From NCBI GenBank assembly GCA_947626695.1, contig CANQTE010000002.1:1-61044 (forward strand): a stretch of DNA of 61,044 nt. Direction: 5' to 3'. The stretch is from an uncultured Bacilli bacterium (GTDB lineage Bacteria > Bacillota_I > Bacilli_A > RF39 > UBA660). Below are positions 11,168-32,434 of the stretch, one piece after another. The position numbers were made by a program, and so were the translations under genes. The notes below the pieces were generated by a model. It did not search any database. It was not told where the DNA came from and was given only the letters and a program-made list of their open reading frames with translations. Positions within the stretch are counted from its first letter, which is position 1. Every line of letters begins with the position of its first letter.

Positions 11168-13435
11168 ATGAAATTTAAAATAACCCCAAAAGATTTTTTG
11201 ATTTTTTGTCTATATTGTGTTTTATTATTGTATTTGTGTTCTATTGCAGTACTTAATTTTTCTTCCTTTTTAAATGATGGAAAGTTTTATGGCTTAATTC
11301 CCTTTAAAGCTTTTACAAAAGATTATATTGGTATAACTTTATTTATGTTTGTAGCGTCTTTAATAATAGTTTTTACATCTGTTTCTAGTTATGTTTTTAA
11401 TAAAGAAAAAGGGAAAGGAATAGGACTTAAATTAGGAGAAAAAAGTGAAAATGGTTATGCTAGATGGAGTACAGATAAAGAAATTAAAACTGATACTGAT
11501 ATAGTTAAAATTAATCCTCGAGATGAAGTTTTAACTGCCGCGGGTATTCCTTTAATTAATAATGGTAAAGAAATATGGGTTGACAATGGTAGTTATCATA
11601 ATTTAGTAATTGGTTCTACTGGTTCTGGTAAAACTCAAACAATAGTAAAACCAATGGTTAATATATTAGCTAAAAAAGGTGAATCTATGATTATTACTGA
11701 CCCTAAAGGTGAAATATATAAATATGCTGCAGATGCCCTAAAAAAACAAGGGTATAAAATAGTTGTTTTAAATTTTAGAGAACCTAATCATGGTAATGCT
11801 TGGAACCCTTTAACTCTTCCATATAAGTATTTTAAAGCAGGTAATACTGATAAATCAACAGAATTATTAGATGACGTTGCCTTAAATATATTATATGACC
11901 AATCTAAAAAGGGAAATGATTCTGATTTCTGGGAAAAGAGTGCAGCCGATTATTTTTCAGGATTAGCTTTAGGTTTATTTTATGATGCAAAAGAAAAAGA
12001 AGTTAATTTAAATAGTATTAACTATATGAGTACAACCGGAGAAGAAAGATATGCTACATCGACTTATATTAAAGAATATTTCACAATGAAAGGTGAAGAT
12101 TCTAGCCCTTATATCTTTGCCTCTAATACTATAAATGCTCCAAGTGATACAAAAGGTGGTATTTTATCGACATTTAGACAAAAAATAAGGTTATTCTCAT
12201 CACGTGAAAGTTTAAGTGAAATGCTTGCTTATAGTGATTTTGATATGTCTAATATTGGTAAAGAAAAGACTGCCGTTTTTATGATTATTCATGACGAAAA
12301 AAAGACTTATCATGCTTTAATGACAATATTTATTAAACAATGTTATGAAACATTAATTGATGTAGCCCAAGAAAGTGGGGGAAAACTACCATTTAGAACT
12401 AATTTTATCTTAGATGAGTTTGCTAATATGCCTCCTTTAAAAGATGTTGATTCTATGGTCAGTGCCGCGCGTTCCAGAGATATTCGTTTTACATTTATTA
12501 TTCAAAACTTTGCCCAATTAAATGATGTTTATGGTAAAGAAGTAGGTGAGATTATTAAAGGCAACTGTGGTAATTTAATTTATTTAATTAGTACTGAACT
12601 TGCCGCGTTAGAAGAAATATCTAAAATGTGTGGAGAAGTTAAGTCAAAAGAAAAAGATAAAACGGCCTCTACTCCATTAATAACTGTCTCAGACCTTCAA
12701 AAATTAAAATTATTTGAAGCTATAATTATTAGATTAAGAAAAAACCCTTTTAGAACAAAATTAAAACCAGATTTTGAAATGGACTGGGGTATTGAAAGGG
12801 AAGAAGCACCTTACCCAGAAAGAAAAATAGAAAAAATAGAAATGTTTGATGTTAAAAAATATGTAACAGAAGAAAGACGTAAGCAAATGATGAGTAATTT
12901 AGAAAATAAGGATGCATCTAAAGATTTTAGTAATCCTTTTGCTAATCCTTTTGGAATGAGTTCACCTTTTGCGTCTCCTTTTGGAGGGATGGGTCTACCT
13001 ATGGGGGACAGTTTTAAACCAAGCACACCATCAAAACCTGCGATGCCTTTTAGTGATTCTCCAGCTTTTAATAAACCGATTGGTAGTCTAACAGACCAAG
13101 AAATAGATGCCATGATGAAAGATATTGATAAAAGACTTCAAGAGTTAGACGAAGAAGAAGCACGAAGTAAAGCAAAAAATAATGTAGCCAATCCAATTAA
13201 TACACCAGTAGATTTACCAAAAACGGTGGAAAAAGATAATATTATAAATGAAATAAAGGAAGAACCTAAAATAGAAGAAAGTAAGAAAGTAGAAGAAATA
13301 TCAAATATTGCAAATACACCAAAAACAAGTGAAATAAACGATAAACCAAAAATTAATGTTGATGCTGATAGTATCATAGTTAATGAAAATGTAGTTACCG
13401 ATGACGAATTTTTTGACGATTTCTTTAATGAATAA
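11168..13435 (+). CDS. type IV coupling protein, VirD4/TraG family, with a long low-complexity C-terminal tail
   Basis: Two N-terminal TM helices, Walker A VIGSTGSGKTQTIVKP, Walker B NFILDEFANMPPL, and IIQNFAQL. The roughly 200-aa tail has NPFANPFGMSSPFASPFGG repeats and the acidic-aromatic end DDEFFDDFFNE. Confidence 0.85.
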   Translation: MKFKITPKDFLIFCLYCVLLLYLCSIAVLNFSSFLNDGKFYGLIPFKAFTKDYIGITLFMFVASLIIVFTSVSSYVFNKEKGKGIGLKLGEKSENGYARWSTDKEIKTDTDIVKINPRDEVLTAAGIPLINNGKEIWVDNGSYHNLVIGSTGSGKTQTIVKPMVNILAKKGESMIITDPKGEIYKYAADALKKQGYKIVVLNFREPNHGNAWNPLTLPYKYFKAGNTDKSTELLDDVALNILYDQSKKGNDSDFWEKSAADYFSGLALGLFYDAKEKEVNLNSINYMSTTGEERYATSTYIKEYFTMKGEDSSPYIFASNTINAPSDTKGGILSTFRQKIRLFSSRESLSEMLAYSDFDMSNIGKEKTAVFMIIHDEKKTYHALMTIFIKQCYETLIDVAQESGGKLPFRTNFILDEFANMPPLKDVDSMVSAARSRDIRFTFIIQNFAQLNDVYGKEVGEIIKGNCGNLIYLISTELAALEEISKMCGEVKSKEKDKTASTPLITVSDLQKLKLFEAIIIRLRKNPFRTKLKPDFEMDWGIEREEAPYPERKIEKIEMFDVKKYVTEERRKQMMSNLENKDASKDFSNPFANPFGMSSPFASPFGGMGLPMGDSFKPSTPSKPAMPFSDSPAFNKPIGSLTDQEIDAMMKDIDKRLQELDEEEARSKAKNNVANPINTPVDLPKTVEKDNIINEIKEEPKIEESKKVEEISNIANTPKTSEINDKPKINVDADSIIVNENVVTDDEFFDDFFNE

Positions 13436-13919: not shown

Positions 13920-14035
13920 AGAAATCGCAAAGATTTCTAAAAGACAAAAAGAGATATCTTTGTTGGCGTTCTCTAGTCCAATATAATTGTAGCTTGAACA
14001 TCTTATCAATGAAGATATGGTGTTCCTTTTTATTC
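13920..14035 (+). ncRNA. candidate small RNA or leader, copy C (paralogue of copy A)
   Basis: TTGTAT-17-TATAGT (13885-13913). The 5' hairpin AGAAATC/GATTTCT shows a compensatory change relative to copy A. It has the same AGAGAT...GTTCTCTAGTCCAAT core and the terminator 13996-14025 followed by CTTTTT. Confidence 0.45.
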
Positions 14036-14054
14036 CTTTGGATGATTGTTGAAT

Positions 14055-14078
14055 TAGTAGTAGTAATACTACTATTTT
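14055..14078 (+). terminator. hairpin TAGTAGTA-GTAA-TACTACTA followed by TTTT
   Basis: An 8-bp perfect stem, a GNRA-type loop and a T run. Confidence 0.5.
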
Positions 14079-14089
14079 AATTTTCTTAG

Positions 14090-14134: not shown

Positions 14135-14401
14135 GTGATTACTATGAAAAGATTAGACATAAAAGATTATAATAAAAATAAAGGCATATTAATTGATATT
14201 CAAAATAAAATAGATTATAATGACTATCATCACCCAGATAGCATAAATATTCCTTATGAAACATTACTTCTTAATTATAAAACATTGCTTGATAAAAATA
14301 AAAAGTATTATATTGTTTGTAATAAAGGAGTTAAATCTCGTAAAGCAGTAGCCATATTAGAATTTTATGGTTATGATGTTACTCAAATGAGCTATGAGTA
14401 A
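14135..14401 (+). CDS. single-domain rhodanese-like sulfurtransferase
   Basis: Active-site loop CNKGVKSRKA and about 88 aa. The start is uncertain (GTG 14135 or ATG 14144) and there is no clear SD. Confidence 0.7.
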   Translation: MITMKRLDIKDYNKNKGILIDIQNKIDYNDYHHPDSINIPYETLLLNYKTLLDKNKKYYIVCNKGVKSRKAVAILEFYGYDVTQMSYE

Positions 14402-20631: not shown

Positions 20632-20668
20632 TTTAAACTAAAGTTTGTTATAATAGCATTAGTTTAAA
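20632..20668 (+). promoter_or_regulatory. promoter of the envelope operon: extended -10 (TGTTATAAT, -10 at 20649-20654) bracketed by the perfect 10-bp inverted repeat TTTAAACTAA/TTAGTTTAAA
   Basis: The repeat arms at 20632-20641 and 20659-20668 are exact reverse complements. The RBS GGAGG follows at 20677. Confidence 0.5.
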
Positions 20669-20686
20669 TATATTTTGGAGGAGTTT

Positions 20687-21163
20687 ATGAAGAACTTAAA
20701 ATATATATTATTTATATTTATTATAGGGTTTATTTCTTTAAATGTTGTTAATGCTAAAGAAGTAAATTATAATTCATATGAAGTTATAAATGTAGATAAT
20801 AACAGGGGAAGTGGCTTTACAAAAAATGATAATATAGATTTTTGTACAAAAGATAATGTCAAAGGGGTATTTAGAGCTATAGGGTGGTTAATAGTAATTA
20901 TAAAGATTATAGTACCTTTAGTAATTATTGCATTTGGAGTTATAGAATTTGCTAAAGCTATGGTATCTAGTAAAGAAGAAGAAATAAAAAAAGCTGGTAA
21001 AAATCTTGTTATAAGTTCAATTTTAGGAATATTTGTCTTTTTTATACCCGCTATAATAAGCTTTGTTACAGGCTTAGTTGGGGGAGAAGATATTTATAAT
21101 GAATCTTTTGGAGTGTGTACTAACTGTATGCTAAATCCAGGTAGTTGTGAAATAGGGAAGTGA
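20687..21163 (+). CDS. secreted or membrane protein with a VirB2/TrbC-like topology (signal peptide, two-helix hairpin, Cys-rich tail)
   Basis: Signal peptide MKNLKYILFIFIIGFISLNVVNA. The hairpin is WLIVIIKIIVPLVIIAFGVIEFAKAMVSSKEEEIKKAGKNLVISSILGIFVFFIPAIISF. GGAGG precedes ATG 20687. Confidence 0.5.
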   Translation: MKNLKYILFIFIIGFISLNVVNAKEVNYNSYEVINVDNNRGSGFTKNDNIDFCTKDNVKGVFRAIGWLIVIIKIIVPLVIIAFGVIEFAKAMVSSKEEEIKKAGKNLVISSILGIFVFFIPAIISFVTGLVGGEDIYNESFGVCTNCMLNPGSCEIGK

Positions 21164-21167
21164 TGAT

Positions 21168-22328
21168 ATGCAAAAGAAAATGTTATTAATTATGCTTTTA
21201 ACTTTTATTTTATGTCCAAGATTAGTATTAGCATCTGGTACTATTAAATTTACAAATGGTAAAGAAAGTATTAAAAGTGCAGTATGTAATTATAAAGTGA
21301 CAAATAATTCATATTTTAAAAATATGCCTCTTCCATCATCTTATGTAAAGATTAATTTTGCAAATGAAAAACTTGTAGGAGCGGAATCGGAACAAACATA
21401 TACTTATTTAGGCTCAGATGTTACTTATAATACATTCTTTAGTGGTGAAAAATTTGAGTGTCCAAATAAATTATCATTTAGAAAAGAATTAAATTCAGTT
21501 CAAGGCCATTATGTTCATCAACCTAAAAATGATGATGATATGGATGGAAATGATTTTCACTTAGTATTTGATAAAAATGGCTCTACTGTTACATATAATT
21601 ACACTCAAGGAAAAGATGATACTCCTAAAGTTACAGTTAAATCAGAGTGTGCTCTTACTAGAACTATATCAGATGGCCAAGCAACTAAATATCAAAAATT
21701 ATCTCCAAGTGAGCTAACATATACAACTTATAGTGATAATACAACTGCTTTTGTAGGAGGAGATGGAACTAAATATAAAATTAGTTCTGGAAGTATTAGT
21801 GATTGTTCAACATCAAATCTTATCTCTTTACATATGAATATAAAAGATAACAAAATAAGTGATTATACTATATCTAATTGTAATCCTAATACTGAACAAT
21901 ATTGTGTTGGTTATCGACTTAGTAAATATGTAAATGCTAACCCTAATATGAACGATGATGGTACAGTTAATAACTCTGGTGGAAGTACAACTCCAACAGA
22001 ATCAACAGATTCAACGATTGATTTTGATATTACCGACGAAAATAATTGTGAAAGTTATTTAGGAAAAATAACTGATAAAAACGCTCCTGCTTATTATTTA
22101 CATATAGTTTTTAATGTAATGAAATATATTGCTATATTATTACTAGGTGGTTTAACAGTTGCAGATATATTTAAAGCAATAACATCGCAAAAAGATGAAG
22201 GAGTAAAAAAAATAGTACCCCTTCTAGTTAAAAGATTAATTATTGTAGTAATTATATTCTTTATACCTGATTTAGTAGAATTTATGTTTGAGTTATTTGG
22301 AATAATTACTAGCACAAATTGTGTATAG
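21168..22328 (+). CDS. secreted Cys-rich protein ending in the same two-helix membrane hairpin
   Basis: Signal peptide LLIMLLTFILCPRLVLASG and a ~290-aa ectodomain with multiple Cys. The C-terminus VMKYIAILLLGGLTVADIFKAITSQKDEGVKKIVPLLVKRLIIVVIIFFIPDLVEF aligns without gaps to the upstream protein. Confidence 0.5.
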   Translation: MQKKMLLIMLLTFILCPRLVLASGTIKFTNGKESIKSAVCNYKVTNNSYFKNMPLPSSYVKINFANEKLVGAESEQTYTYLGSDVTYNTFFSGEKFECPNKLSFRKELNSVQGHYVHQPKNDDDMDGNDFHLVFDKNGSTVTYNYTQGKDDTPKVTVKSECALTRTISDGQATKYQKLSPSELTYTTYSDNTTAFVGGDGTKYKISSGSISDCSTSNLISLHMNIKDNKISDYTISNCNPNTEQYCVGYRLSKYVNANPNMNDDGTVNNSGGSTTPTESTDSTIDFDITDENNCESYLGKITDKNAPAYYLHIVFNVMKYIAILLLGGLTVADIFKAITSQKDEGVKKIVPLLVKRLIIVVIIFFIPDLVEFMFELFGIITSTNCV

Positions 22329-22351
22329 ATTGAGAAAGGAGGAATATAGAT

Positions 22352-24778
22352 ATGGATGTTATAAAATCAATTCAAGAGGCTATCTTTGGCTTTCTTCTAT
22401 CATTAGATGGAATTGTATATAGCCTTATCACCTGGGTATATCAAATTATCATGATACTTGCCGAGAGTTCTTCTAAATTGTTTAGTAATACAGACTTATT
22501 AGATAATTTTATGAATAGACTTTATGTTATTATTGGAGTAGTCATGATGTTTTTCTTAGCATACTCACTTTTAAGGTCAATGGTAAACCCAGACGAATTA
22601 ACTAAAGGGAAAAAATCTCCAGTAAAAATTATTAAAGATGTTATCATATCTATTGCCCTGATAGCATTTGTTCCAACTATTTTTGAATACGCTTATAATT
22701 TTCAAAGTGCTGTTTTAAGTCAAAATACTATTGGAAAAATAATATTAGGTAATAATGCTGGGACAAGTGATGGAAGTGTAACATCAACATCAAGCATAAT
22801 TGACCAAGGTGGAAATACTTTTGCCTCGGCTTTATTAGGTGGTTTTATTCATCCTAAAATTGGTGAAGGTGCCTGTGGCTATGAAAATGGAGAATATAAA
22901 TGTAATAATTCAATAAAAGTAGATGGAGTGGAATTTAATGAATTTTGGAAAAATTTAGAAACAACTGGTGATTTTGGAAGTATATCATCTCTTAATACTT
23001 TAGTTGTTGATGGAAAAATAGACTATATGTGGCTAATAAGTACAATTGCAGGAGTACTTACTTTATTAATATTAGTTGGTTATTGTTTTGATACAGCTCT
23101 TAGGATGGTAAAACTGGCAGTTTTTCAGTTAATAGCACCTATTCCTATATTATGTCGTGTAGCACCAGGTGAACAAGGAGGAAAAGTTTTTTCTAATTGG
23201 GTTAAAGGAACACTTTCCACTTATTTGGAAGTCTTTATTAGGATGGCTATATTATTCTTTGCGGTGTTTATTATCACAGTAGTTATTTCAAATTTAGGTT
23301 CGATATTTGTAAGTGGAGCAGATACTGTAACAGAAGACCCAACCAAAATACTCCTTTTCTTAATAGCCAAAGTACTTATGATTTTAGGAATAATTTTATT
23401 TGTTAAACAAGCTCCTCAAATTATTAAAGAAATAACTGGACTTGATGGAGGCAAGTACAGTCCACTTAAGTCTGCTAAACAAGCATTTAGTTTCTTTGGC
23501 GGAGGTATTGCAGGTGCCATGGCTGGCGGTGGAGTATTAGGAGCATTAAGAGGAAGCTACAATGCTTATAATGAAGCTGGAGAAGCAAAAAAACTAACTG
23601 ATTTCCATTCAATAGGAAATCAATATAAAAGAAGTCAGGCGGCAAGAGAAGCAAGAGAAATACAAGAAGATAATGGACTTAGAGGTATAAGAAGAGTTGC
23701 AACTAATGTAGATAACAGTATGCGCAGAACATTTGGGTTTGCCACTTTAAAAGAACGAGCAGATAGAAGACTAGAAAATTTTCAAGATTTAAATGGAAAT
23801 TATTTTACAGTTACTAATGATACTGGAGCAGCTATTATGGCTGAAAACGGACGTGACGTGGTGCTTGGTGCTGGAGATACTATGACACTTACTCCAGAAG
23901 CTAGAGCAAACTTGGAACGACTTAAAGCAAGTCGTGAAAGAGCAAAAGCACAGATTTCAGAACAAGCACGACAAGCAGAAGATGCAACAAAAGTAAATCA
24001 AGCGGCAATTCAGGCGGTTAAAGATATAGAAGCATTAGCAGAATCAGAAATAGAAACTAAAAATAAGGTAAATTTGGTTACTAGAGATGAAAGTAGTGGC
24101 CTTTATCATTTTTTAGAATTAACTGCTCAGAAAAAAGTTAGAAATGCAGATGGAACAGAAGGTAATGTAACAGTTACTTTTGGAGGCGACGGAAAAACAT
24201 TGCAACAATATAGAGATTGGCTTGAAGCAATGAAGTCAGACTTAGCCCCTGAAGCATATGAAGATTTAAAAACTCAAGTTGATAGAGCACAACGAGAAGA
24301 TACTAAAAGATTTTTTATTGATAACAATGGGCGCGGTCAAGTTATTAAAAGTGATGGAAGTACTGTAACCTATGGCGAAGAAAATGAAGAATTGAAACAT
24401 AAAAAGCAAATGTTAATGACGGAATATGACCGTAGTAAATTAAAACATGTTACAAGAAATGCGGACGGCAGTGTTGCTACTACTGATGCAACTGCTACTT
24501 CATTAACCGGAAAAAATTCTGATGCCCTTACTATAGCTGATTTAAAAGCATATAAAAAAGCGGCCGAGACTGAAAATTTCACAGCCGATACAGTAAAAGG
24601 TCAAATACAAGCAGAAGTTGCTACTCAAGATATACAAATCAAGGGAATTAATAGGGTTATTGAACAACAACCTAAAGAACAAGTTGCACAACATAAGGCT
24701 AGTACTGAATATAGGCAAGTTGAGGCAGCAGATAGAGCACACAATATAAATAAACAGGGTGGCAATGGAGGACATTAA
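22352..24778 (+). CDS. polytopic membrane protein (VirB6/TrbL-like architecture) with a ~400-aa charged coiled-coil tail
   Basis: At least six hydrophobic helices in residues 1-400, with a ~110-aa loop. The C-terminal half is rich in A/E/K/R/Q. Confidence 0.45.
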   Translation: MDVIKSIQEAIFGFLLSLDGIVYSLITWVYQIIMILAESSSKLFSNTDLLDNFMNRLYVIIGVVMMFFLAYSLLRSMVNPDELTKGKKSPVKIIKDVIISIALIAFVPTIFEYAYNFQSAVLSQNTIGKIILGNNAGTSDGSVTSTSSIIDQGGNTFASALLGGFIHPKIGEGACGYENGEYKCNNSIKVDGVEFNEFWKNLETTGDFGSISSLNTLVVDGKIDYMWLISTIAGVLTLLILVGYCFDTALRMVKLAVFQLIAPIPILCRVAPGEQGGKVFSNWVKGTLSTYLEVFIRMAILFFAVFIITVVISNLGSIFVSGADTVTEDPTKILLFLIAKVLMILGIILFVKQAPQIIKEITGLDGGKYSPLKSAKQAFSFFGGGIAGAMAGGGVLGALRGSYNAYNEAGEAKKLTDFHSIGNQYKRSQAAREAREIQEDNGLRGIRRVATNVDNSMRRTFGFATLKERADRRLENFQDLNGNYFTVTNDTGAAIMAENGRDVVLGAGDTMTLTPEARANLERLKASRERAKAQISEQARQAEDATKVNQAAIQAVKDIEALAESEIETKNKVNLVTRDESSGLYHFLELTAQKKVRNADGTEGNVTVTFGGDGKTLQQYRDWLEAMKSDLAPEAYEDLKTQVDRAQREDTKRFFIDNNGRGQVIKSDGSTVTYGEENEELKHKKQMLMTEYDRSKLKHVTRNADGSVATTDATATSLTGKNSDALTIADLKAYKKAAETENFTADTVKGQIQAEVATQDIQIKGINRVIEQQPKEQVAQHKASTEYRQVEAADRAHNINKQGGNGGH

Positions 24779-24803
24779 TAATTTAATATTTTAGGAGGTT
24801 TTT

Positions 24804-25637
24804 ATGTTTAAATTATATAAAGGTAAAATTAGTGATATAATAAAAGATGAAATTGCTCAAGCTTTTGGTTTTGGAACTAAAAAAGAAAGAATAGACCATA
24901 ATTTAGGCCAATATAGAATTAATGAAGTTAATAATATAAATTATATTATAGCTCAACGAAATATTCTAATTTCTAAGTTAAATACTCAATTAGCTAATTA
25001 TGATAGAATATTAAACCCACTTAAAGAATTTGAAACTCTTTATAAAAAAATAGAAGAATTATCCGAACAAGAAATAATTAAAAATGGCTCTGCTGTTTCA
25101 TTTACTTTAAAAAGAAAAAATGGAAGTATTTATGCAAATGGAAATTATGCCACTTTAAGAGATGCAATAAAATTGGAAAAAAATGCAGATGAAGCAATAT
25201 TTCTTTATGACAGTTTAGAAAAAATGAGAAATAAAGCAAAAACACTCCTAATTGAAAAAATAATTAATAATAATGGAACAATTTATTCTCGCTTAGGAGA
25301 AATATATATTCCTGAAATTTGTACAAATTTTCAAAGATTAAAACAGCTAGTTTCCTTAGGACTTATTTGTAATTCTAGTGGAAATCCATATATATTTAGC
25401 ATAAATAATTTTAATGATGCTACTCTATTAAGAGATAGTATAAGAAAAGATATGAATTCATTAGAATATAATAGAAATGCTATTTATTACAATTTAAATT
25501 CACTAAAAAGTGCTTCTGCTTCTGATGAAAGCACATTAAATTTAATAGAAAAGTCTAAAGAATTAATAAGAAAATCTCCAGAATATATCGCAGCATCTTT
25601 AAGTGACGAATATTTAAAAGGAAAGAAGAACAGATGA
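24804..25637 (+). CDS. soluble protein paralogous to the tail of the preceding membrane protein
   Basis: AQAFGFGTKKERIDHNLGQY matches RRTFGFATLKERADRRLENF. IEELSEQEI matches IEALAESEI. IINNNGTIYS matches FIDNNGRGQVIKS. Confidence 0.5.
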   Translation: MFKLYKGKISDIIKDEIAQAFGFGTKKERIDHNLGQYRINEVNNINYIIAQRNILISKLNTQLANYDRILNPLKEFETLYKKIEELSEQEIIKNGSAVSFTLKRKNGSIYANGNYATLRDAIKLEKNADEAIFLYDSLEKMRNKAKTLLIEKIINNNGTIYSRLGEIYIPEICTNFQRLKQLVSLGLICNSSGNPYIFSINNFNDATLLRDSIRKDMNSLEYNRNAIYYNLNSLKSASASDESTLNLIEKSKELIRKSPEYIAASLSDEYLKGKKNR

Positions 25638-25671: not shown

Positions 25672-27036
25672 ATGTACAATAATATTTTAATTGAATCTTT
25701 AGATTCTTTTGGTAGAGGTATAGCTCATATAAATGGAAAAGTAATTTTTGTTAAAAATGCTTTACCTGAAGAAATAGTAGATATAAAAATTTTAATAAAT
25801 AAAAAAAGATATAGTGAAGCTATAGTATTAAAATATATTAAATTAAGTCCTAAAAGAGTTAAAAGTATATGCCCATATTTTAATAAATGTGGAGGGTGTC
25901 ATTTATTATATTATAATTATTTAGATAGTATAGATTTTAAATATAATAAAGTTAAAGATTTATTTATTAAAAATAAAATTAATGTTAAAAATATAGATGT
26001 TGTTGCTAATACTAATTATTTAGAATATCGCAATAAAATAAGTTTAAAGATAATAAATAAAAAAATAGGTTTTTATAAAGATAGTACTCATGAATTAGTA
26101 GAAATAGATAAATGTTTAATAGCAAATTCTTCTATTAATAAAGTAATTAAGTGTTATAAATTATTAAATATTAATAATGGTGAGTTAATAATTAGAGTAA
26201 ATAGTAATAATGAAATATTATTAATTATTAAAAGTAGTAATAATAATTATAATATAGAAATAGAAAAATTAAAAAAAGAAATTAAATTAGTAGGTATAGT
26301 ATATAATAATAAAGTTATTTATGGAAATGATTTTTATTATGAAAGAATTAATAATAAACTATTCAAAATAAGTTATGATTCTTTCTTTCAAGTTAACCCT
26401 TATATTACTAGTAAATTATTTAATTTAGTAAGCGATAATATAGACCAAGATAGTACTGTTTTAGATTTATATAGTGGTGTAGGTACTTTAGGTATTATAG
26501 CAAGTACTAAAGCTAAATATGTTTATAGTGTTGAAATAGTAAAAAATGCTGTTTTAAATGGTAATAAAAATGCTTTATTAAATAAAGTAAATAATATTAA
26601 GTTCTTTTTAGGAGACGTATCTAAAATAGTAAATAAATTAAATGTAGAGTTTAATACACTTATAATAGACCCTCCAAGATGTGGTTTAGATAAAGAAACT
26701 ATTAAATTTATTAAAGATAAGTTGTGTTAAACATAATTACTGATAAAGAAATATTAGACATAAATTTGCTATTATATGAAATCTCAATTGTGTTTAATTT
26801 TGTTGAAATAACCTGTTTTTATCATCTATCAGTCATAAAGTAAAACAGAACCTAAAGATAAAAAATTTCAAAAAATTATTTATATTTCCTGTGATATTTT
26901 TACCCTTATTAGAGATTTAAAATTATTAGATAATTATAGTATAAAAGAGTATAAAATTCTCGATATGTTCAGCTTCACGTATCATTTAGAATCTTTTTGT
27001 GTACTAAATTTAAATAAAGATTTAAAAGAAAAATAA
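25672..27036 (+). pseudogene. 23S rRNA (uracil-5-)-methyltransferase, RumA/RlmD family, interrupted in frame by a 133-nt insertion
   Basis: TRAM N-terminus, Fe-S Cys cluster CPYFNKCGGCHLLY, SAM motif VLDLYSGVGTLG, and DPPRCGL. The C-terminal KIIYISCDIFTLIRDL...DMFSFTYHLESFCVL resumes at 26854 in the same frame after several stop codons. Confidence 0.8.
26721..26853. mobile_element. MITE-like 133-nt insertion with the 8-bp target-site duplication AAAGATAA
   Basis: AAAGATAA occurs at 26713-26720 and 26854-26861 in the same codon phase. The imperfect terminal inverted repeat is GTTGTGTTAAAC against GTTCTGTTTTAC (reverse complement of the end), matching 9 of 12. There is no ORF inside. Confidence 0.55.
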
Positions 27037-27212: not shown

Positions 27213-27241
27213 TTGACAAGATGTATAAAATATGGTATAAT
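27213..27241 (+). promoter_or_regulatory. consensus sigma-A promoter TTGACA-17-TGGTATAAT (extended -10) for coiled-coil gene 1
   Basis: Exact -35 and -10 hexamers, a 17-nt spacer and a TG at -15/-14. The RBS AGAGGGAG follows. Confidence 0.8.
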
Positions 27242-27268
27242 CTAAGCATCGAAAGAGGGAGATTGGAT

Positions 27269-29731
27269 ATGAATATTAATGAATTAAATCAAAAAATTGA
27301 AAATATTGAGTCTAGACTAAGAGACTGGGTTTATCTAGAATCAAGTGGTTCAATTGCTTATGACGATTTATTTAAATTATCAGAAGAAATTTTAACAGAA
27401 AAAGAAAAATTAAATAATGGAGAAGTAGATGCTGATTTGTCTGATGTAGCACCAAATTTATTAGAGGCTTTAGATAGATTAGACAGTATTCAAAAAAGAA
27501 TAAACGAGGAGATAATAAGTAGAACTAAAACAGCGAAAACTCTTCCTTATTGTAAAATTTTAGAACAAAATGTTAAACAAAATATTGCTACGATGGAAGT
27601 TTTAATTAAAGCAAAAAGTAGCGATAGATTTATAGCTAAATTAAGCGAAATGTCTGAACTTGAAGCAGAAATAGTAGCTACTTTAAGTGCAGTAGAAAAA
27701 GATGAAAAAGAACGTGAAAAGGCTGGCTATAAAGATTTTAGTCATACTGTTTCAAAAACTGTTTTGCAAAATGCCCTTGATGAGTGGCAAGAAATTAAGT
27801 CACAACTACCAGAACAGTATAGAAATAGGGAAACTACAAAAGATACAATAGAACAACCTATCATTGAAGATAAGCCTATTGATATAAATGCTGAGATTAG
27901 ACAAATAACTTTAGAAGTAAATGAAATATACTCAAATTTTAGAAATAATAATGCTAAATCTGAATCTGATAAACCAGAAGAAGAAATTAGTATCAAATTA
28001 GCAGAATTAAAGAAAATTTCAAGCTTAAAAGAACGTATGCTTAAACTTGCATCAGCAACAAAAGATGACTTTATAAAAATTGGTGTTTTAGATCAACTTG
28101 AAAAAATTGAAAAAGTTGAGACAAAAGTATCAGAAAGTGCAAAGACAATAAGTGAAACTCTAGGTAGCAATGTAAAATTAAGTGCTGAAAGTTCAAGAAT
28201 AATAATGGAAATAAGTCAAAAACTTTCGGCAATTGGAATTTTAAGAGCAGCAGGAAAAGCAGCTGCTATTACTGAAGATGAAATTTCAGCAAGAATAAAA
28301 GAATTAAAACGTTTAGAAAAAGAGCTATCTGATATAAAAGAAAAATTACAAAAAGAATTACAAGAAACTAAATCAGAAGAAAATCAAAAAGCAATAAACA
28401 GTATATTAAAAAATATAGGAAATAGTGAAAATAGCTTAAAAGACTTCAAGAAAAGTGAATTAAGTCGTAAAACATTAGAAACTATTAGTTTAGAGGAATT
28501 GGATGAAATTGATTTAGAAAATGCTCTACGTTTATTTGGACTAAAAGAGGGCTTTGATAGAAATGCGTTAGAAGAAAGAAATAGTGAGTTATTAAGCAAA
28601 TATGATGCTTATGATACAGAGGGAACAGAAGAATTTGAGAAAGCAAAAGAAACAGAGCAAAAAATTGGTAAATTAAGGGCAAAATTACTTGAAGAATTAA
28701 AACAAAGACAGGCAAAAGAACATTATGATAATTTAACTTTTGATAGCATGACAGAAGAAGATTTACAAAAAATTAAAGATGATAATGATATAAAAACAGC
28801 TTTACATTTATACGGTTTAGAAGAAAACTATACTGAAGAAGAATTAAAAGCTAAAAAAGAGGAATTATTTATAAAATATCGCCAAAATACAAAATTAACT
28901 CCAGACCAAAGAAGTAGCATAATTGATAACATATTAGCTATAAATGATATTTTAGAAATAGAATTATCAAAGAAACAATCAATTGAACAACAAAATAATA
29001 CTAATAATGGTAATACCGCTGTAGATAATCAAGATATAGAAACTTTAAATAGTGAAGATTCACTAGAGGATGAAATGCCTGTTAAAGTTGTTGCTTCAAG
29101 AGTATGGAATTATGTAAAAGATCATAAGAAACAAATATTAATAGGTATTGGTATTGCTGCTTTACTTACTGTATCATTTATTAGTCTTTATAATTTAGGC
29201 ATTGTAGCTCAGATGGCTGCAAATGGTAGTGCTTGGTTTACAACAGAAGTTGCTAAGCGCGAAGCTTTACACGTTGCAAATAGTCAATTAGCTGAAAAGT
29301 TATTATTTATAAGTCATAGTTTTGAACAAATTAATGGTGTTTGGACTATTGGAGGTCAAAAACTTTTAACTGGTAAATTAATTAATACTTTAAGTGGTAT
29401 TTCTTTAGCAACAGGTGCTCTTGGTGTAAGTGGACTTGTACTAACTAATTTAATTAAAAAGAGATCTCAAGCTTATAAAGAGATAAAAAATGAAATTAGA
29501 GTTTTAAATTCTGACATTAACATTGAACTTATTAGACCTAGTAGTATTAGCAATGCAGAAGAGAGATTTAAGGATTTAGTAAATAAAATAAATAATTCTA
29601 CAGAATTATCAAAAGATGAACAGAAAATTTTATTAACTAAATTAAAAAATGTAGAGAAAAATAGGTTACGTTTTGTAGGAAGAAATCAAGAACCTGATGA
29701 ATTAGATTTAGAAGGAAGGAGTAGGGCTTAA
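27269..29731 (+). CDS. large coiled-coil protein with two degenerate J-domain-like repeats and a C-terminal two-TM membrane domain (paralogue 1)
   Basis: 820 aa from ATG 27269; the track start at 27221 lies inside the promoter. About 620 aa are heptad-rich. Motifs include ALRLFGLKEGFDRNALEERNSELLSKY and ALHLYGLEENYTEEELKAKKEELFIKY. The TM helices are ILIGIGIAALLTVSFISLY and LSGISLATGALGVSGLVLTNL. Confidence 0.75.
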   Translation: MNINELNQKIENIESRLRDWVYLESSGSIAYDDLFKLSEEILTEKEKLNNGEVDADLSDVAPNLLEALDRLDSIQKRINEEIISRTKTAKTLPYCKILEQNVKQNIATMEVLIKAKSSDRFIAKLSEMSELEAEIVATLSAVEKDEKEREKAGYKDFSHTVSKTVLQNALDEWQEIKSQLPEQYRNRETTKDTIEQPIIEDKPIDINAEIRQITLEVNEIYSNFRNNNAKSESDKPEEEISIKLAELKKISSLKERMLKLASATKDDFIKIGVLDQLEKIEKVETKVSESAKTISETLGSNVKLSAESSRIIMEISQKLSAIGILRAAGKAAAITEDEISARIKELKRLEKELSDIKEKLQKELQETKSEENQKAINSILKNIGNSENSLKDFKKSELSRKTLETISLEELDEIDLENALRLFGLKEGFDRNALEERNSELLSKYDAYDTEGTEEFEKAKETEQKIGKLRAKLLEELKQRQAKEHYDNLTFDSMTEEDLQKIKDDNDIKTALHLYGLEENYTEEELKAKKEELFIKYRQNTKLTPDQRSSIIDNILAINDILEIELSKKQSIEQQNNTNNGNTAVDNQDIETLNSEDSLEDEMPVKVVASRVWNYVKDHKKQILIGIGIAALLTVSFISLYNLGIVAQMAANGSAWFTTEVAKREALHVANSQLAEKLLFISHSFEQINGVWTIGGQKLLTGKLINTLSGISLATGALGVSGLVLTNLIKKRSQAYKEIKNEIRVLNSDINIELIRPSSISNAEERFKDLVNKINNSTELSKDEQKILLTKLKNVEKNRLRFVGRNQEPDELDLEGRSRA

Positions 29732-29997
29732 TGAAGGTTGATACAGTAGTGACACTAGCAAATAATAAAGAATATTTATTATTATTGGAATCTAAATTAG
29801 TAGGAGAAGATTATTTCTTAGCAGTATTATTAGATTCTAGAGGAGAGCCAACCGTTGATTATGCAGTATTAAAAAAAGTTATAAAAGACGGTGAAGAGTA
29901 TGCTCAAAAAATAAATAACGTTGAAATATTAAAAGAATTGCTAGAAGATTATGGAGAACAATATGCCGATTTATATGGAGACGGCGAGGAAGTTTAG
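29731..29997 (+). CDS. small acidic DUF1292-like protein, translationally coupled (TAATG) to the coiled-coil gene
   Basis: 88 aa: VTLANNKEYLLLLESKLVGEDYFLAVLL...EEYAQKINNVEILKELLEDY. Its ATG overlaps the upstream TAA. Confidence 0.55.
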   Translation: MKVDTVVTLANNKEYLLLLESKLVGEDYFLAVLLDSRGEPTVDYAVLKKVIKDGEEYAQKINNVEILKELLEDYGEQYADLYGDGEEV

Positions 29998-30050: not shown

Positions 30051-30079
30051 CTAGGCATTGAAAGAGGGATAGTTTGGAT

Positions 30080-32434
30080 ATGGCAATTGAAGATTTAAAG
30101 AAAAATATACAAGAATTTAAAGAAGAATTAACAAAGATAAAATCTATGACAGGCAAAACTTATATTAATAATTCTATATTATATATTACTAAAAAAATAT
30201 TAGAATTAACACAAAATTTAGAACAAGAAGTAACAGATGAATTAATAGAAAATTTAGAAACTTTAGATGTGATTTATGAAGAAGCAATTACTATTGCTAA
30301 AAAAAATGACGAATATGGATATTGTGAATTATTACATAATTTTATGATGCAAAAACTTTGGACAATAAAAGTTATGCTTAAATCTATTAATAAAGACAAT
30401 TTAAAGAATAAAATTACTAAAAATTTAGCAAGTTTAGAAGATATAAAAAAGGAGACTGAATTAGAAATTAATTCTTTAGAACAAAGTATAGGGGAATATA
30501 ATGATTATAATACTTATTATGATACAGAAAGTTTAAAAGTATTACGACAAGATATTAAGGCTTATAATTCATTTATAATTGAACTACCAAAAGAATATAG
30601 AAAAACATCAAGTTCTACTATTGAAGGAGTAACTTCTATTGAAGATACTATAGAAATTAAACAAATAACTTCAGAAGTAGAAGAAATTTGTATGAATTTC
30701 CAAAATAATAGTCTTAAATCTAAATCTGGAAGAATAGAAGAAGAAATAAGCATAAGATTAGAAGAATTATCTAAAATTGCAAAATTAAAAAATCGTATGT
30801 TTAAACTTATTTCAAAATCATCAGAAAGAGATATAAAACTCTCAGTTTTAGAGCAACTTAAAAAAATAGAAAAAGTTACGACTGAAATTTTAGAAGATAT
30901 AAAGAGTGTAAATGAATCTTTAAGTGATGAAGCATTAAAATTAAGTGTTGAAAGTTCAAGAATAGTAAATGAAATAAAGCAAAAACAATCTGCGATAAAA
31001 ATTTTAAGTGCAGTTGAAAACAAAAGCAATTTAGATGAAGCAAGACTTGCAATAAAATTAAAAGATTTAGATCGCTTAGAGCAAGATTTATTAAACATAC
31101 AAGCTAAATTACAAGAAAAACTAAAAAAGGTTAAATCTATTGAAGATCAAAAAATAATTAGCGGCATATTAAAAAATATAGAGTATTTTCAAACAGATTT
31201 AACAGATTTTAAGAAAAATAGATTAAATAGTAGGACATTAGAAAGTATTAGTTTAGCAGATTTAGATGACATTGATTTAGAAAGTGCATTACGTTTATTT
31301 GCTCTAAATAAAGATTTCGATAGATATGCTTTAGAGGCAAGATGCAGTGAATTATTAGAGAAATATGAACCTCTTGATGCTCAAGGAATAGAAGAACGTG
31401 AAAAAGCAGATGAAATGACTCATAAAGTAATAAAATTAAAAGCAAGATTACTTACAAACTTAAGAGAAAGACATGAAGAAAGCAAAATTCTTACTCTTGA
31501 TGATATGACAGAAGAAGATTTACAAAAAATTCAAGTTAATAATGATATAAAAACAGCATTACATTTATTTGGATTAAAAGAAGGATATACTAGAGAAGAG
31601 TTAGAAAATAAAAAATATGAATTATATACGAAATATCGTGAAAATCCTGAATTAACACATGATAAAAAAAGTAGTTTAATTGACAAAGTACTAGCTATAA
31701 ATACTATCTTAGAAACAGAATTAAACAGAAATAAACAAAAAAGTCGAAATTCTGAAATTATAAATAATAGTTCAAAAGATACTACTTCTAGTACTAGAGA
31801 GTATATTGATAATTCAAATCCAGTTAAAGTAGTTGCCACGAGGGCATGGAATTGGGTAAAAGATCATAAAAAACAAATTTTAATTGGAATTGGTATCCTA
31901 GCTATTTCCTTATCAATGGTAAGTATGTTAAACCTATCTATGGCATCACAAATGGTTGCAAGTGGAGCAGCACGGCTCCATGCTGGTAGTGCAGTCCAAC
32001 TTGCTTTGCATGATGCAAACATTACTATATCTAAGCAATTACTAGGTTTAAGAGCTAGTTATGAAGCTGGTCTTGGAGTTTGGACAATCGGAGGTCAAAA
32101 AATCTTAACTAGTAACTTAATTAATATGCTAACAGGTGTTACTTTAGTATCACAATTTGCTGGACTTGGAGTATCTTTTGCAGGTTTAATTTCTAAAAAA
32201 AGTAATGTTTATAAAGATATTAGTGAGCAAATTAAAGACTTTAGACGTATTCCTTTAGATGAAAGCAATGGAATAACTAGAGGTAGATATCTTTCTCTTG
32301 CAGATACTATAAAAAATTCTAATGATTTATCAAATTCAGAAAAAAATGAATTATCTAATGATTTAATAAATGCCTACAAATATTTATCTTCAAATCAAAG
32401 ACAAATATTTGAAGAAGAAAGAATAAGAAGATAA
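30080..32434 (+). CDS. large coiled-coil protein with two J-domain-like repeats and a C-terminal two-TM domain (paralogue 2)
   Basis: 784 aa. It is collinear with paralogue 1 from about residue 190 onward, for example ALRLFALNKDFDRYALEARCSELLEKY, ALHLFGLKEGYTREELENKKYELYTKY and VKVVATRAWNWVKDHKKQILIGIG. Confidence 0.75.
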   Translation: MAIEDLKKNIQEFKEELTKIKSMTGKTYINNSILYITKKILELTQNLEQEVTDELIENLETLDVIYEEAITIAKKNDEYGYCELLHNFMMQKLWTIKVMLKSINKDNLKNKITKNLASLEDIKKETELEINSLEQSIGEYNDYNTYYDTESLKVLRQDIKAYNSFIIELPKEYRKTSSSTIEGVTSIEDTIEIKQITSEVEEICMNFQNNSLKSKSGRIEEEISIRLEELSKIAKLKNRMFKLISKSSERDIKLSVLEQLKKIEKVTTEILEDIKSVNESLSDEALKLSVESSRIVNEIKQKQSAIKILSAVENKSNLDEARLAIKLKDLDRLEQDLLNIQAKLQEKLKKVKSIEDQKIISGILKNIEYFQTDLTDFKKNRLNSRTLESISLADLDDIDLESALRLFALNKDFDRYALEARCSELLEKYEPLDAQGIEEREKADEMTHKVIKLKARLLTNLRERHEESKILTLDDMTEEDLQKIQVNNDIKTALHLFGLKEGYTREELENKKYELYTKYRENPELTHDKKSSLIDKVLAINTILETELNRNKQKSRNSEIINNSSKDTTSSTREYIDNSNPVKVVATRAWNWVKDHKKQILIGIGILAISLSMVSMLNLSMASQMVASGAARLHAGSAVQLALHDANITISKQLLGLRASYEAGLGVWTIGGQKILTSNLINMLTGVTLVSQFAGLGVSFAGLISKKSNVYKDISEQIKDFRRIPLDESNGITRGRYLSLADTIKNSNDLSNSEKNELSNDLINAYKYLSSNQRQIFEEERIRR

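What the first reader, a model, noticed from the sequence alone, without database searches (positions are those of the whole stretch)
20632..25637. ATPase-less, T4SS-like envelope operon wedged between rluB and a rumA-type gene
Four same-strand genes sit behind one promoter, with gaps of 4, 23 and 25 nt. (A) is 158 aa: a signal peptide, a two-helix hairpin and a Cys-rich tail. (B) is 386 aa: a signal peptide, a Cys-rich ectodomain and the same hairpin. (C) is 808 aa: at least six TM helices with a ~110-aa loop, then a ~400-aa charged coiled-coil tail. (D) is a 277-aa soluble protein. The A/B topology is that of VirB2/TrbC-type pilins, and C has the layout of VirB6/TrbL/ConG/TcpH channel proteins. 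The window contains no VirB4/ConE ATPase, relaxase, cell-wall hydrolase or intact integrase, and no att-type repeats flank this locus. Both flanks are housekeeping genes. This does not look like an ordinary conjugative element and may be a domesticated or undescribed envelope/secretion apparatus. The only related ATPase is the VirD4-like gene 7 kb upstream.
Basis: partly seen in the sequence, partly recalled or inferred. Interest (0 to 1): 0.75.

Follow-up and report, generated by a model that had tools for sequence, protein, structure and literature searches.

The report
Chromosomal type IV secretion channel module
These four genes are the pilin-like and channel part of a type IV secretion machine that is inherited as a normal chromosomal feature across a whole group of uncultured, low-GC gut bacteria. 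Its motor ATPases exist but lie elsewhere in the same genome, so it is not ATPase-less.

Summary
The four genes are real and have the described topologies. A and B carry the same C-terminal two-helix hairpin, a divergent relative of Pfam T4SS_pilin. C has a six-helix VirB6-like membrane domain: its only NCBIfam matches are three conjugation-channel families, and its top five Foldseek hits are R388 TrwI/VirB6. D is a free-standing paralogue of C's cytoplasmic tail (hhalign 98.8%).

The cassette occurs in at least 63 species of uncultured gut Bacilli. In most it is followed directly by a VirB3-like gene, a VirB4-N-terminal-like gene and a 594-aa VirB4. In deeper lineages two more genes follow, then the coupling protein and a rhodanese.

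In the window's lineage this operon is split. The coupling protein at 11168-13435 is the operon's orthologue (64% identity, same rhodanese neighbour). The VirB3/VirB4 module sits on another contig found in exactly the same three assemblies at matching coverage.

So "ATPase-less" holds only locally, while "T4SS-like, not an ordinary ICE, domesticated" is supported. VirB4 is better conserved (median 87.5%) than a neighbouring Mur ligase (73%), whereas A, B and C are about 41-44% identical between species. The closest known analogue is the chromosomal, relaxase-less, pilin-array T4SS of Patescibacteria. The closest sequence relatives are mycoplasma ICE components. The substrate is unknown.

The parts
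20645..20674 (+). Promoter-like site (TTGTTA-18-TATATT) ahead of gene A. Weak, and not above chance.
   Evidence: 9 of 12 matches; 45 sites found in the region against 60 expected; sequence, with GGAGG before the ATG at 20687.
20687..21163 (+). Gene A, 158 aa: signal peptide, short ectodomain, VirB2/T4SS_pilin-like two-helix hairpin with a Lys-rich loop, and a tail with three Cys.
   Evidence: Pfam PF18895 at E 0.002-0.005, below the cut-off. NCBIfam Mbov_0395 pilin-like at 1.8e-4. The hairpin family matches PF18895 in 52 of 111 members.
21168..22328 (+). Gene B, 386 aa: signal peptide, Cys-rich ectodomain of about 280 aa that varies between species, and the same C-terminal pilin-like hairpin.
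   Evidence: The hairpin matches MMCAP2_0566 weakly. In relatives, only the hairpin part of B-like genes is conserved.
22352..23460 (+). Gene C, N-terminal VirB6-like channel domain (about aa 1-370): six TM helices, an outside loop at 116-222 with two invariant Cys (C175, C184), and an invariant ITGLD motif at the end.
   Evidence: Alignment A1. AF2 model with pLDDT about 80-90 in this part. Foldseek top five hits are TrwI/VirB6, best 8rt9_F at E 0.013, prob 1.0, TMt 0.51. NCBIfam matches MMCAP2_0566, pLS20_p028 and Mbov_0396 only.
23461..24778 (+). Gene C, variable charged coiled-coil tail (aa about 371-808). It is predicted to be cytoplasmic from the positive-inside rule and from its paralogy with D, which has no signal peptide.
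   Evidence: hhalign aligns the D family with C 446-796.
24804..25637 (+). Gene D, 277 aa, soluble: a free-standing paralogue of the C tail. It forms a long antiparallel coiled coil with small beta inserts and is present only in part of the clade.
   Evidence: hhalign prob 98.8%, E 7.3e-17. AF2 pLDDT 89.5. No specific fold match. Distribution.
11168..13435 (+). Type IV coupling protein (VirD4/TraG-like, 755 aa), the orthologue of the coupling protein that ends the complete operon in related species.
   Evidence: Pfam T4SS-DNA_transf 6e-53. NCBIfam conju_CD1115 at 290.8 bits, above the cut-off of 250. 64% identity over the full length to the L043 coupling protein.
14135..14401 (+). Rhodanese-domain gene (about 85 aa). 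It is a synteny marker that follows the coupling protein both here and in species with the complete operon.
   Evidence: 60% identity to the L043 rhodanese. Gene calls for L068. Pfam hit on the L043 copy.

Best explanation
A-D are the envelope module of a vertically inherited chromosomal type IV secretion system of the Gram-positive/mycoplasma-ICE (MPF-FATA) kind. The module holds two pilin-fold surface proteins, a VirB6-like channel with a cytoplasmic tail, and a free copy of that tail.

The system is conserved across a clade of uncultured low-GC gut Bacilli, which from memory I take to be GTDB order RF39. In this genome it is split into at least three places:
- A-D at 20.7-25.6 kb.
- The coupling protein at 11.2-13.4 kb.
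- A tripartite VirB3-like / VirB4-N-like / VirB4 ATPase module on another contig.

Inferred working model:
- A and B are exported by Sec and sit in, or are extracted from, the membrane through their hairpins. Their variable Cys-rich ectodomains face outward, acting as a pilus or as contact adhesins.
- C forms the membrane channel.
- C's cytoplasmic coiled-coil tail and its free paralogue D dock the VirB4 and coupling-protein ATPases or their cargo.
- The coupling protein feeds a macromolecular substrate to a neighbouring cell.

The identity of the parts is shown by homology, structure prediction and synteny. Assembly, the existence of a pilus and the substrate are all inferred.

My split for function:
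- about 0.4 for a fitness-critical, non-conjugative contact-dependent exchange, as in Patescibacteria;
- about 0.3 for relaxase-independent chromosomal DNA transfer, as in mycoplasma chromosomal transfer;
- about 0.1 for DNA uptake;
- the rest for adhesion only or a decaying system.
For: Component identity:
- Hairpin family: PF18895 T4SS_pilin is the top Pfam family (52 of 111 members, best 5.7e-7). A matches the Mbov_0395 pilin-like family.
- C family: it matches only MMCAP2_0566 (14 of 34 members, 4.7e-14), pLS20_p028 (13 of 34) and Mbov_0396 (6 of 34). The top five Foldseek hits are TrwI/VirB6.
- D is a paralogue of the C tail.

Synteny:
- 63 species loci carry the cassette.
- The commonest order is Mur ligase(-) | A-like | B-like | C | (D) | 104 aa | 181-189 aa | 594 aa.
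- Deeper lineages continue with an about 840-aa gene, an about 250-aa gene, the coupling protein and a rhodanese.

Tripartite VirB4:
- The three ORFs after C map to positions 2-96, 101-276 and 294-891 of the 894-aa mycoplasma VirB4 model, with E 9e-103 for the ATPase piece.
- The family matches PDB 4ag5 VirB4 at 4e-59.

ATPases in this genome:
- The window's coupling protein is 64% identical to the operon's coupling protein and has the same rhodanese neighbour.
- The VirB4 module P0128 is found only in ERZ27249467, ERZ27249462 and ERZ27060228 at coverage 4.2-5.0x. The window's contigs occur in the same three assemblies at 4.6-5.2x.
- GC is 25.6% against 24.8%, and the tetranucleotide correlation is r = 0.995.
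- In MAG CANRPK01, from the same subclade, the VirB4 module is on a different contig from the A-C cassette.

Vertical, constrained inheritance:
- VirB4 has a median identity of 87.5%, against 72.9% for the adjacent Mur ligase in the same loci. The coupling protein is at 65%, A/B/C at 41-44% and D at 30%.
- The nearest plasmid VirB4 is at most 28.5% identical. The nearest named relatives, in Thomasclavelia, Solobacterium and Mycoplasmatota, are 31-35% identical.
- There are no att repeats. Local GC (22-36% per kb across 20-26 kb) stays within the range seen elsewhere in the window.
Against: - Every profile match of the window's own A, B and C is below the curated cut-off, and the Foldseek E-value is only 0.013.
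- The VirB4 contig is assigned to this genome by co-occurrence, coverage and composition, not by a closed assembly.
- No VirB8-like or cell-wall-hydrolase component was recognised. The roughly 840-aa and 250-aa genes of the full operon have no informative matches and were not found in this lineage.
- No relaxase was seen next to any component. A whole-genome search was not possible, so conjugation cannot be excluded or shown.
- There are no expression data and no cultured representative.
- The promoter and operon structure are not statistically supported.
Confidence: 0.8

Rival explanations
1. The system is a working conjugation machine that moves chromosomal DNA between cells of the clade. 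This would be mycoplasma-chromosomal-transfer-like and distributive, with an unrecognised relaxase or none. A-D would form the mating pore and mating-pair contacts.
For: - The closest sequence families are all conjugative: mycoplasma ICE VirB4, CDS15-like and CDS16-like proteins, pLS20_p028 and the CD1115 coupling-protein family.
- In M. agalactiae ICEA, CDS5, 15, 16 and 17 are each required for transfer, and no canonical relaxase is known there (PMC6030558). MCT depends on that machinery (PMC12857230).
- The coupling protein is retained and well conserved.
Against: - No relaxase, oriT or transposase was seen near any module.
- VirB4 is more conserved than a cell-wall housekeeping gene. That fits a function needed in every generation better than occasional gene exchange.
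- Nothing here tests recombination patterns in these genomes.
Confidence: 0.3
2. The four genes are a decaying remnant of an integrated conjugative element that has lost its ATPase, relaxase and integrase.
For: No VirB4, relaxase or integrase lies in the 61-kb window. The neighbouring rumA-type gene is disrupted.
Against: - All four ORFs are intact, with ribosome-binding sites.
- Orthologous cassettes with the same order occur in 63 species.
- The ATPase module is retained elsewhere in the same subclade and, very probably, in the same genome.
- The coupling protein is intact and 64% identical to operon orthologues.
Confidence: 0.04
3. The system is a DNA-uptake (competence) T4SS like H. pylori ComB, or a surface-adhesion organelle that translocates no substrate.
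For: It is chromosomal and relaxase-less. The pilin-like proteins carry large variable ectodomains. In several lineages a GspE/PilB/ComGA-type ATPase gene lies divergently next to the pilin module or the VirB4 module.
Against: From my own knowledge, ComB-type uptake systems lack a coupling protein, whereas here the coupling protein is conserved and ends the ancestral operon. The neighbouring GspE-type ATPase is a type IV pilus or competence-pilus enzyme and may simply be a syntenic neighbour.
Confidence: 0.12

Closest known systems
Chromosomal T4SS of Patescibacteria/Saccharibacteria (Wang et al. 2023, PMC10633639; Quinonero-Coronel et al. 2025, PMC12102498)
   Same: - Both are monoderm, reduced-genome lineages.
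- The T4SS is a chromosomal, clade-wide feature with no adjacent relaxase.
- Both have arrays of 2 or more sequence-divergent VirB2/T4SS_pilin-like genes next to a VirB6-like gene.
- VirB3-like, a separate VirB4-N-terminal-like protein (TrsD there) and VirB4 are separate ORFs.
- The coupling protein is often encoded far from virB4.
   Different: - The host phylum differs (Bacillota, class Bacilli).
- By NCBIfam, the VirB4 is closest to the mycoplasma ICE VirB4. Its nearest named relatives are Erysipelotrichales and Mycoplasmatota at 31-35%.
- Membership of the Patescibacteria VirB4 clade was not tested.
- Many pilin-like proteins here carry ectodomains of 150-450 aa.
- C has a long cytoplasmic tail with a free paralogue, D.
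- Essentiality is unknown.
Mycoplasma ICE conjugation module (ICEA CDS5, CDS15, CDS16, CDS17; NCBIfam Mbov_0395/0396/0397 and MMCAP2_0565/0566)
   Same: - These are the best sequence-profile matches for A (pilin-like), C (polytopic TM) and VirB4.
- The gene order is the same: pilin-like, then VirB6-like, then VirB4.
- A coupling protein is present, and no VirB1 or VirB8 is recognised.
   Different: - All matches are below the curated cut-offs.
- VirB4 is one 894-aa protein in mycoplasma and three ORFs here.
- No DDE transposase or ICE borders were found (none in any scanned ORF or recorded gene call; no att-like repeats).
- The system is fixed in the chromosome across species rather than mobile.
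- The host has a cell wall, as Mur ligases are present.
VirB6-family channel proteins with C-terminal extensions (TrwI/VirB6 of R388; TcpH, pLS20 p028 and PrgH of Gram-positive systems)
   Same: The N-terminal domain is polytopic with a large outside loop. The fold resembles TrwI, and there is a profile match to pLS20_p028. From memory, the layout with a long C-terminal cytoplasmic domain is like TcpH.
   Different: Sequence similarity is marginal. The tail has no match to any known domain. Its duplication as a separate soluble protein (D) is not something I know from described systems.

Membership tests
Type IV secretion system, Gram-positive/MPF-FATA kind | VirB4-family ATPase | tested here: met
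   Not in the window. Adjacent to the cassette in 42 or more related loci. Matches Mbov_0397 VirB4 at 9e-103, CD1110 at 8e-50 and PDB 4ag5 at 4e-59. A copy (P0128) co-occurs with the window's contig in the same three assemblies at matching coverage and composition.
Type IV secretion system, Gram-positive/MPF-FATA kind | Type IV coupling protein (VirD4/TraG) | tested here: met
   Window 11168-13435. Pfam 6e-53. NCBIfam CD1115 family above its cut-off. Orthologous to the coupling protein that ends the operon in relatives.
Type IV secretion system, Gram-positive/MPF-FATA kind | VirB6-like polytopic channel protein encoded with VirB4 | tested here: met
   Six TM helices and a large loop. Only conjugation-channel NCBIfam families match, all below cut-off. 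Foldseek top five hits are TrwI/VirB6, E 0.013. Adjacent to VirB3/VirB4 in relatives.
Type IV secretion system, Gram-positive/MPF-FATA kind | VirB3-like small membrane partner of VirB4 | tested here: met
   The 103-104-aa ORF upstream of VirB4 matches positions 2-96 of the fused mycoplasma VirB4 model (E 1e-3) and TcpE (E 1e-4), both weak. It is present on the contig assigned to this genome.
Type IV secretion system, Gram-positive/MPF-FATA kind | VirB8-like scaffold and VirB1/CwlT-like cell-wall hydrolase | tested here: inconclusive
   The roughly 840-aa and 250-aa genes between VirB4 and the coupling protein in full operons have no informative Pfam or NCBIfam match. No homologue was found in the window. 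An M23/LysM peptidase at 57659-59152 is unlinked.
VirB2/TrbC/T4SS_pilin (PF18895) pilins | Signal peptide followed by two hydrophobic helices joined by a short basic loop | tested here: met
   Seen in A and B. The hairpin family alignment A3 has nearly invariant K, K/A, K and R in the loop.
VirB2/TrbC/T4SS_pilin (PF18895) pilins | Profile match at or above Pfam's gathering score (26.6 bits) | tested here: not met
   A scores 17.4-18.6 bits and B has no hit. Across the family, 52 of 111 members match at E <= 0.01, with a best of 5.7e-7. This makes it a divergent relative, not a curated member.
VirB2/TrbC/T4SS_pilin (PF18895) pilins | Polymerises into an extracellular pilus | not testable with these tools
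   Needs cryo-EM or cryo-ET, or multimer modelling. Large N-terminal ectodomains on many members (87-548 aa in total) make a classical pilus uncertain.
Integrative and conjugative element (ICE) | Integrase or transposase, relaxase, and flanking att repeats | tested here: not met
   None in the window's scanned ORFs or in the gene calls around relatives. The exceptions are unrelated elements (MobL in L075, serine recombinases in L078). No att-like repeats.
Integrative and conjugative element (ICE) | Variable presence and insertion site between related genomes | tested here: not met
   The same cassette sits next to the same Mur ligase gene in 34 or more species. Component identities track or exceed those of the housekeeping neighbour. 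The rearrangements seen are lineage-wide, not strain-level.
Patescibacteria-type domesticated T4SS | Chromosomal and clade-wide, with pilin arrays and VirB3 + TrsD-like + VirB4, and without a relaxase | tested here: met
   compared with the descriptions in PMC12102498.
Patescibacteria-type domesticated T4SS | VirB4 falls in the monophyletic Patescibacteria VirB4 clade | not tested
   No Patescibacteria VirB4 sequences were at hand. The nearest named relatives found are Erysipelotrichales and Mycoplasmatota at 31-35%.
Patescibacteria-type domesticated T4SS | Required for growth or the epibiotic lifestyle | not testable with these tools
   No cultured representative is known to me, and nothing linking RF39 to T4SS was found in the library. 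The only indirect hint is the very high VirB4 conservation.

The most novel reading that the evidence does not exclude
A whole order-level clade of reduced-genome animal-gut Bacilli carries a core, relaxase-less T4SS with arrays of diversifying VirB2-like pilin-fold proteins. This would be a second case, after Patescibacteria, of a T4SS turned into a housekeeping contact organelle in monoderm bacteria. It would imply a partner-dependent lifestyle for these uncultured gut bacteria. It might also represent the Firmicute lineage in which MPF-FATA machinery and VirB2-like pilins were first combined.
Probability: 0.25. Interest if true: 0.8.

Novelty: new variant of a known kind. Interest (0 to 1): 0.62.

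Why it matters
Recent reviews state that Gram-positive T4SSs lack VirB2-type pilins, with the Patescibacteria system as the single exception, and that this system is the first T4SS essential to its bearer (PMC12857230, PMC12102498). Here, a clade of uncultured gut Bacilli common in humans and animals shows the same syndrome:
- a chromosomal, vertically inherited T4SS;
- a VirB4 more conserved than a cell-wall enzyme;
- fast-evolving surface pilin-like proteins;
- no relaxase in sight.

If this reading is right, it points to cell-to-cell dependence or exchange as a central part of the biology of these gut bacteria. It also offers a Firmicute comparator for the origin of the Patescibacteria system. 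Finally, it adds a new architectural feature: a VirB6 tail duplicated as a soluble protein.

Tried and rejected
- VirB4 in or next to the window: tblastn found none. The 10 kb to the right of the window also has none. The left-edge look-up returned only contigs under 2 kb.
- The two large genes downstream (836 and 786 aa) are paralogous coiled-coil membrane proteins, not ATPases.
- D: there is no Pfam or NCBIfam hit. A PDB sequence-profile search gave nothing meaningful. Foldseek on a confident model returned only generic coiled coils.
- The idea that C's first helices are a fused pilin hairpin: hhalign of the hairpin family against the C family gave only 3.5% probability. The Pfam T4SS_pilin hit on C 47-113 is therefore not relied on.
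- The GspE/PilB-type ATPase next to T4SS modules in some lineages was considered as a VirB11 analogue. It was rejected because it matches GspE, PilB and ComGA, not VirB11.
- Literature: no paper in the library links RF39 to T4SS or VirB4, and none links RF39 to Candidatus Caccenecus. The RF39 label rests on my memory of GTDB.
- Plasmids: no close relative was found, with a maximum of 28.5% identity.

Full report
**Observation**

The window is a roughly 25% GC chromosome segment carrying ftsA, ftsZ, iscS, thiI, uppS, addAB, dnaB and similar genes.
- A at 20687-21163 (158 aa from the ATG that follows a GGAGG box; a TTG at 20675 would give 162 aa).
- B at 21168-22328 (386 aa).
- C at 22352-24778 (808 aa).
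- D at 24804-25637 (277 aa).

The gaps are 4, 23 and 25 nt, and each gene has a ribosome-binding site.

Hydropathy confirms the stated topologies:
- A has a signal peptide, two helices and a three-Cys tail.
- B has a signal peptide, a seven-Cys ectodomain and a C-terminal hairpin.
- C has about six TM helices, a 107-aa loop and a charged 400-aa tail.
- D is soluble.

The A and B hairpins are homologous. The proposed promoter is only a 9/12 consensus match in AT-rich DNA, where such matches are not enriched. The window holds no VirB4, relaxase or integrase and no att-like repeats.

**What the proteins are**

*A and B.* Taken alone, their database matches are all sub-threshold but point one way. 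A matches Pfam T4SS_pilin and the mycoplasma Mbov_0395 "pilin-like conjugal transfer protein". B's hairpin matches MMCAP2_0566. I collected 122 ORFs with this hairpin from related loci. There are 2-6 per locus, 87-548 aa long, and the hairpin is always C-terminal. Scanning 111 of them individually, T4SS_pilin is the top Pfam family (52 members, best E 5.7e-7). The family is therefore a divergent relative of the VirB2-like pilins and does not reach Pfam's cut-off.

*C.* The C family has more than 235 members, 700-900 aa long, unnamed and with no Pfam domain. It has a conserved 370-aa N-terminal domain, including two invariant loop cysteines and an ITGLD motif, and a variable tail. Scanned one by one, its members match only three NCBIfam models, all conjugation-channel proteins: MMCAP2_0566 (14 of 34, 4.7e-14), pLS20_p028 (13 of 34) and Mbov_0396 (6 of 34). 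An AlphaFold model (mean pLDDT 75, membrane domain 80-90) returns TrwI/VirB6 of plasmid R388 as its five best PDB matches (E 0.013, prob 1.0, target TM 0.51).

*C topology.* Three things place the N terminus and the tail in the cytoplasm. This is inference.
- Loop charges follow the positive-inside rule.
- The loop carries a Cys pair, which fits an outside location.
- D, the tail's paralogue, has no signal peptide.

*D.* D has no database match, but profile-profile comparison shows it is homologous to the C tail (D 10-270 against C 446-796, probability 98.8%, E 7e-17). Its confident model (pLDDT 89.5) is a long coiled-coil hairpin with small beta inserts and no specific structural relative.

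**Context in other genomes**

A scan of one genome per species found the C gene in 63 species. All are uncultured gut Bacilli, deposited as "uncultured Bacilli", "uncultured Tenericutes", "Mycoplasma sp. CAG:776" or "Candidatus Caccenecus". From memory these belong to GTDB order RF39; I could not verify that here.

A tblastn synteny map shows the commonest order: Mur ligase(-) | A-like | B-like | C | (D) | 104 aa | 181-189 aa | 594 aa. In deeper-branching species the operon continues with a gene of about 840 aa, one of about 250 aa, the coupling protein and an 84-aa rhodanese.

The three ORFs after C correspond to consecutive segments of the 894-aa mycoplasma ICE VirB4 model:
- positions 2-96, VirB3-like, with a weak TcpE match as well;
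- positions 101-276, Pfam "TraC-like";
- positions 294-891, E 9e-103.

The ATPase family matches the solved VirB4 4ag5 at 4e-59. This tripartite VirB3 / VirB4-N-like / VirB4 layout is also what has been described for Patescibacteria (VirB3/PrgI, TrsD, VirB4; PMC12102498).

**Is this genome ATPase-less?**

No, with high probability.
- *Coupling protein.* The protein at 11168-13435 is 64% identical over its full length to the coupling protein that ends the complete operon in L043. It is followed by the same rhodanese gene (60% identity). It is the system's own coupling protein, left behind by rearrangement.
- *Subclade.* The window belongs to a subclade (L005, L006, L019, L021, L031, L036, L037) in which A-B-C-(D) is followed by rumA instead of VirB4. 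In one such MAG (CANRPK01, which also gave L021) the VirB3-like/TraC-like/VirB4 module lies on a different contig. In L006 and L037, genes that flank that module elsewhere appear about 8 kb downstream of D, at the end of the fetched DNA.
- *Same assemblies.* VirB4 protein P0128, with its two upstream partners, occurs on contigs in exactly three assemblies: ERZ27249467, ERZ27249462 and ERZ27060228, at coverage 4.2-5.0x. The window's contigs occur in the same three at 4.6-5.2x. GC is 25.6% against 24.8%, and the tetranucleotide correlation is 0.995, the highest of the loci compared.

The apparatus is therefore dispersed over at least three chromosomal sites, not incomplete.

**Mobile element or core feature?**

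The evidence points to a core feature.
- The cassette keeps the same neighbours across dozens of species.
- It has no integrase, relaxase or att repeats nearby.
- It has native composition.
- Using one reference genome against the same loci, VirB4 is 80-99% identical (median 87.5%), while the adjacent Mur ligase is 69-95% (median 72.9%). The coupling protein is about 65%, A, B and C about 41-44%, and D about 30%.
- More than 7,000 90%-identity clusters of this VirB4 exist in public data.
- The nearest plasmid VirB4 is at most 28.5% identical.
- In a 1.8-billion-protein library, similarity falls from 68% to 46%, 43% and then 35% or less. The first named relatives are in Thomasclavelia ramosa, Solobacterium and a Mycoplasmatota plasmid.

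A cytoplasmic motor conserved more strongly than a cell-wall enzyme, joined to fast-evolving exposed parts, is the pattern of a constrained, vertically inherited machine with surface components under diversifying pressure.

**Mechanism (inferred)**
- A and B are Sec-exported hairpin proteins whose termini and ectodomains face outward, as in VirB2.
- C forms the channel.
- C's tail and D form a cytoplasmic platform for VirB4, the coupling protein or cargo.
- The conserved coupling protein argues for export of a macromolecule rather than ComB-like uptake.

Whether the cargo is DNA or something else cannot be decided here. Mycoplasma ICE machinery drives relaxase-obscure chromosomal transfer (PMC6030558, PMC12857230). 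In Patescibacteria, the T4SS is essential for epibiotic growth and is thought not to conjugate (PMC10633639, PMC12102498). I lean slightly towards the second option because of the extreme VirB4 conservation and the clade-wide fixation.

**Comparison and novelty**

By sequence, the system is nearest to the mycoplasma ICE module. By organisation and evolutionary status, it is nearest to the Patescibacteria T4SS. It is a member of the T4SS superfamily: VirB4, the coupling protein, VirB6-like and VirB3-like features are met. It does not meet the curated thresholds of any named pilin or VirB6 family, and it fails every ICE criterion tested.

I found no paper linking these bacteria to a T4SS. Current reviews say VirB2-type pilins are absent from Gram-positive T4SSs apart from Patescibacteria. 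I therefore rate it a new variant of a known kind. Its specific new features are pilin-fold proteins with large ectodomains and a VirB6 tail duplicated as a soluble protein.

**Verdict**

Interest is moderate to high (0.62). It is limited by sub-threshold matches for the window's own proteins, the lack of a closed genome, and the unknown substrate.

Noticed in passing
window 25672-27035: The rumA-type methyltransferase gene is interrupted. The ORF stops at 26730 and resumes in the same frame near 26860, after an insert of about 135 nt that contains several stop codons. The sequence is identical in a second independent assembly. Relatives have uninterrupted 402-405-aa genes.
   Followed up: partly
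window 13438-13660 and 13867-14085: Two tandem copies (82% identical, about 425 nt apart) of a non-coding unit of about 220 nt fill the 700-nt gap between the coupling-protein gene and the rhodanese gene; L043 has only 80 nt there. Each copy has a promoter-like TTGCAT-17-TATAAT, a conserved hairpin (GAACACC...GGTGTTC) and a terminator-like stem with a U run. The fold z-score is -3.1. No Rfam family matches. These are candidate duplicated small RNA genes.
   Followed up: partly
window 27221-29731, 29731-29997, 30074-32434: Two paralogous coiled-coil proteins (836 and 786 aa) with C-terminal TM segments flank an 88-aa gene. Homologues of the 836-aa and 88-aa genes sit directly upstream of the pilin-like/VirB6-like genes in locus L056. 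They may be accessory to the system or just syntenic neighbours.
   Followed up: partly
L001 66-4659; also L049 and L060: A Tad/VirB11-like operon lies a few kb upstream of the T4SS cassette in three lineages. In L001 it holds DUF5411, a CpaB-like gene, a 362-aa ATPase whose best match is VirB11/TadA, and two unannotated genes. It is followed there by a 120-aa protein with the same pilin-like hairpin as gene A (40% identity). It is absent from the window.
   Followed up: partly
L026 6730-7932(-), L074 7027-8232(-), L077 5800-7008(-), L006 and L037: A conserved 401-402-aa GspE/PilB/ComGA-type ATPase gene (78-84% identical between lineages) lies divergently next to the pilin module in one lineage and next to the VirB3/VirB4 module in others. 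This suggests an older arrangement with all parts at one site.
   Followed up: partly
L078 2969-10750; L075 18006-20083: On the contig assigned to the window's genome, VirB4 is followed by a collagen-like repeat protein, a Fic-domain gene and two large serine recombinases. In a related genome, a MobL relaxase and a second, different coupling protein lie about 8 kb from the VirB4 module. These look like separate mobile elements inserted nearby.
   Followed up: no
window 35518-35616 (+): An Rfam DUF3800-VII RNA match (56 bits against a gathering score of 36) lies upstream of a HIT-family gene. tRNAs are at 9813-9883(-) and 46068-46140(-).
   Followed up: no
window 48857-49780, 54609-54956; L069 7300-7521; L074 1927-2829: Genes with sporulation-associated Pfam domains (YutH spore coat, YlbD, YlbE; SpoIIP in a relative) occur in this small-genome, Mollicutes-like lineage.
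   Followed up: no
window 34872-35354, 41771-43200, 6301-7851(-): A SocA/Panacea antitoxin-domain gene and an AbiEi/AbiEii toxin-antitoxin pair are present, along with a short (516-aa) UvrD/PcrA-like helicase on the minus strand.
   Followed up: no
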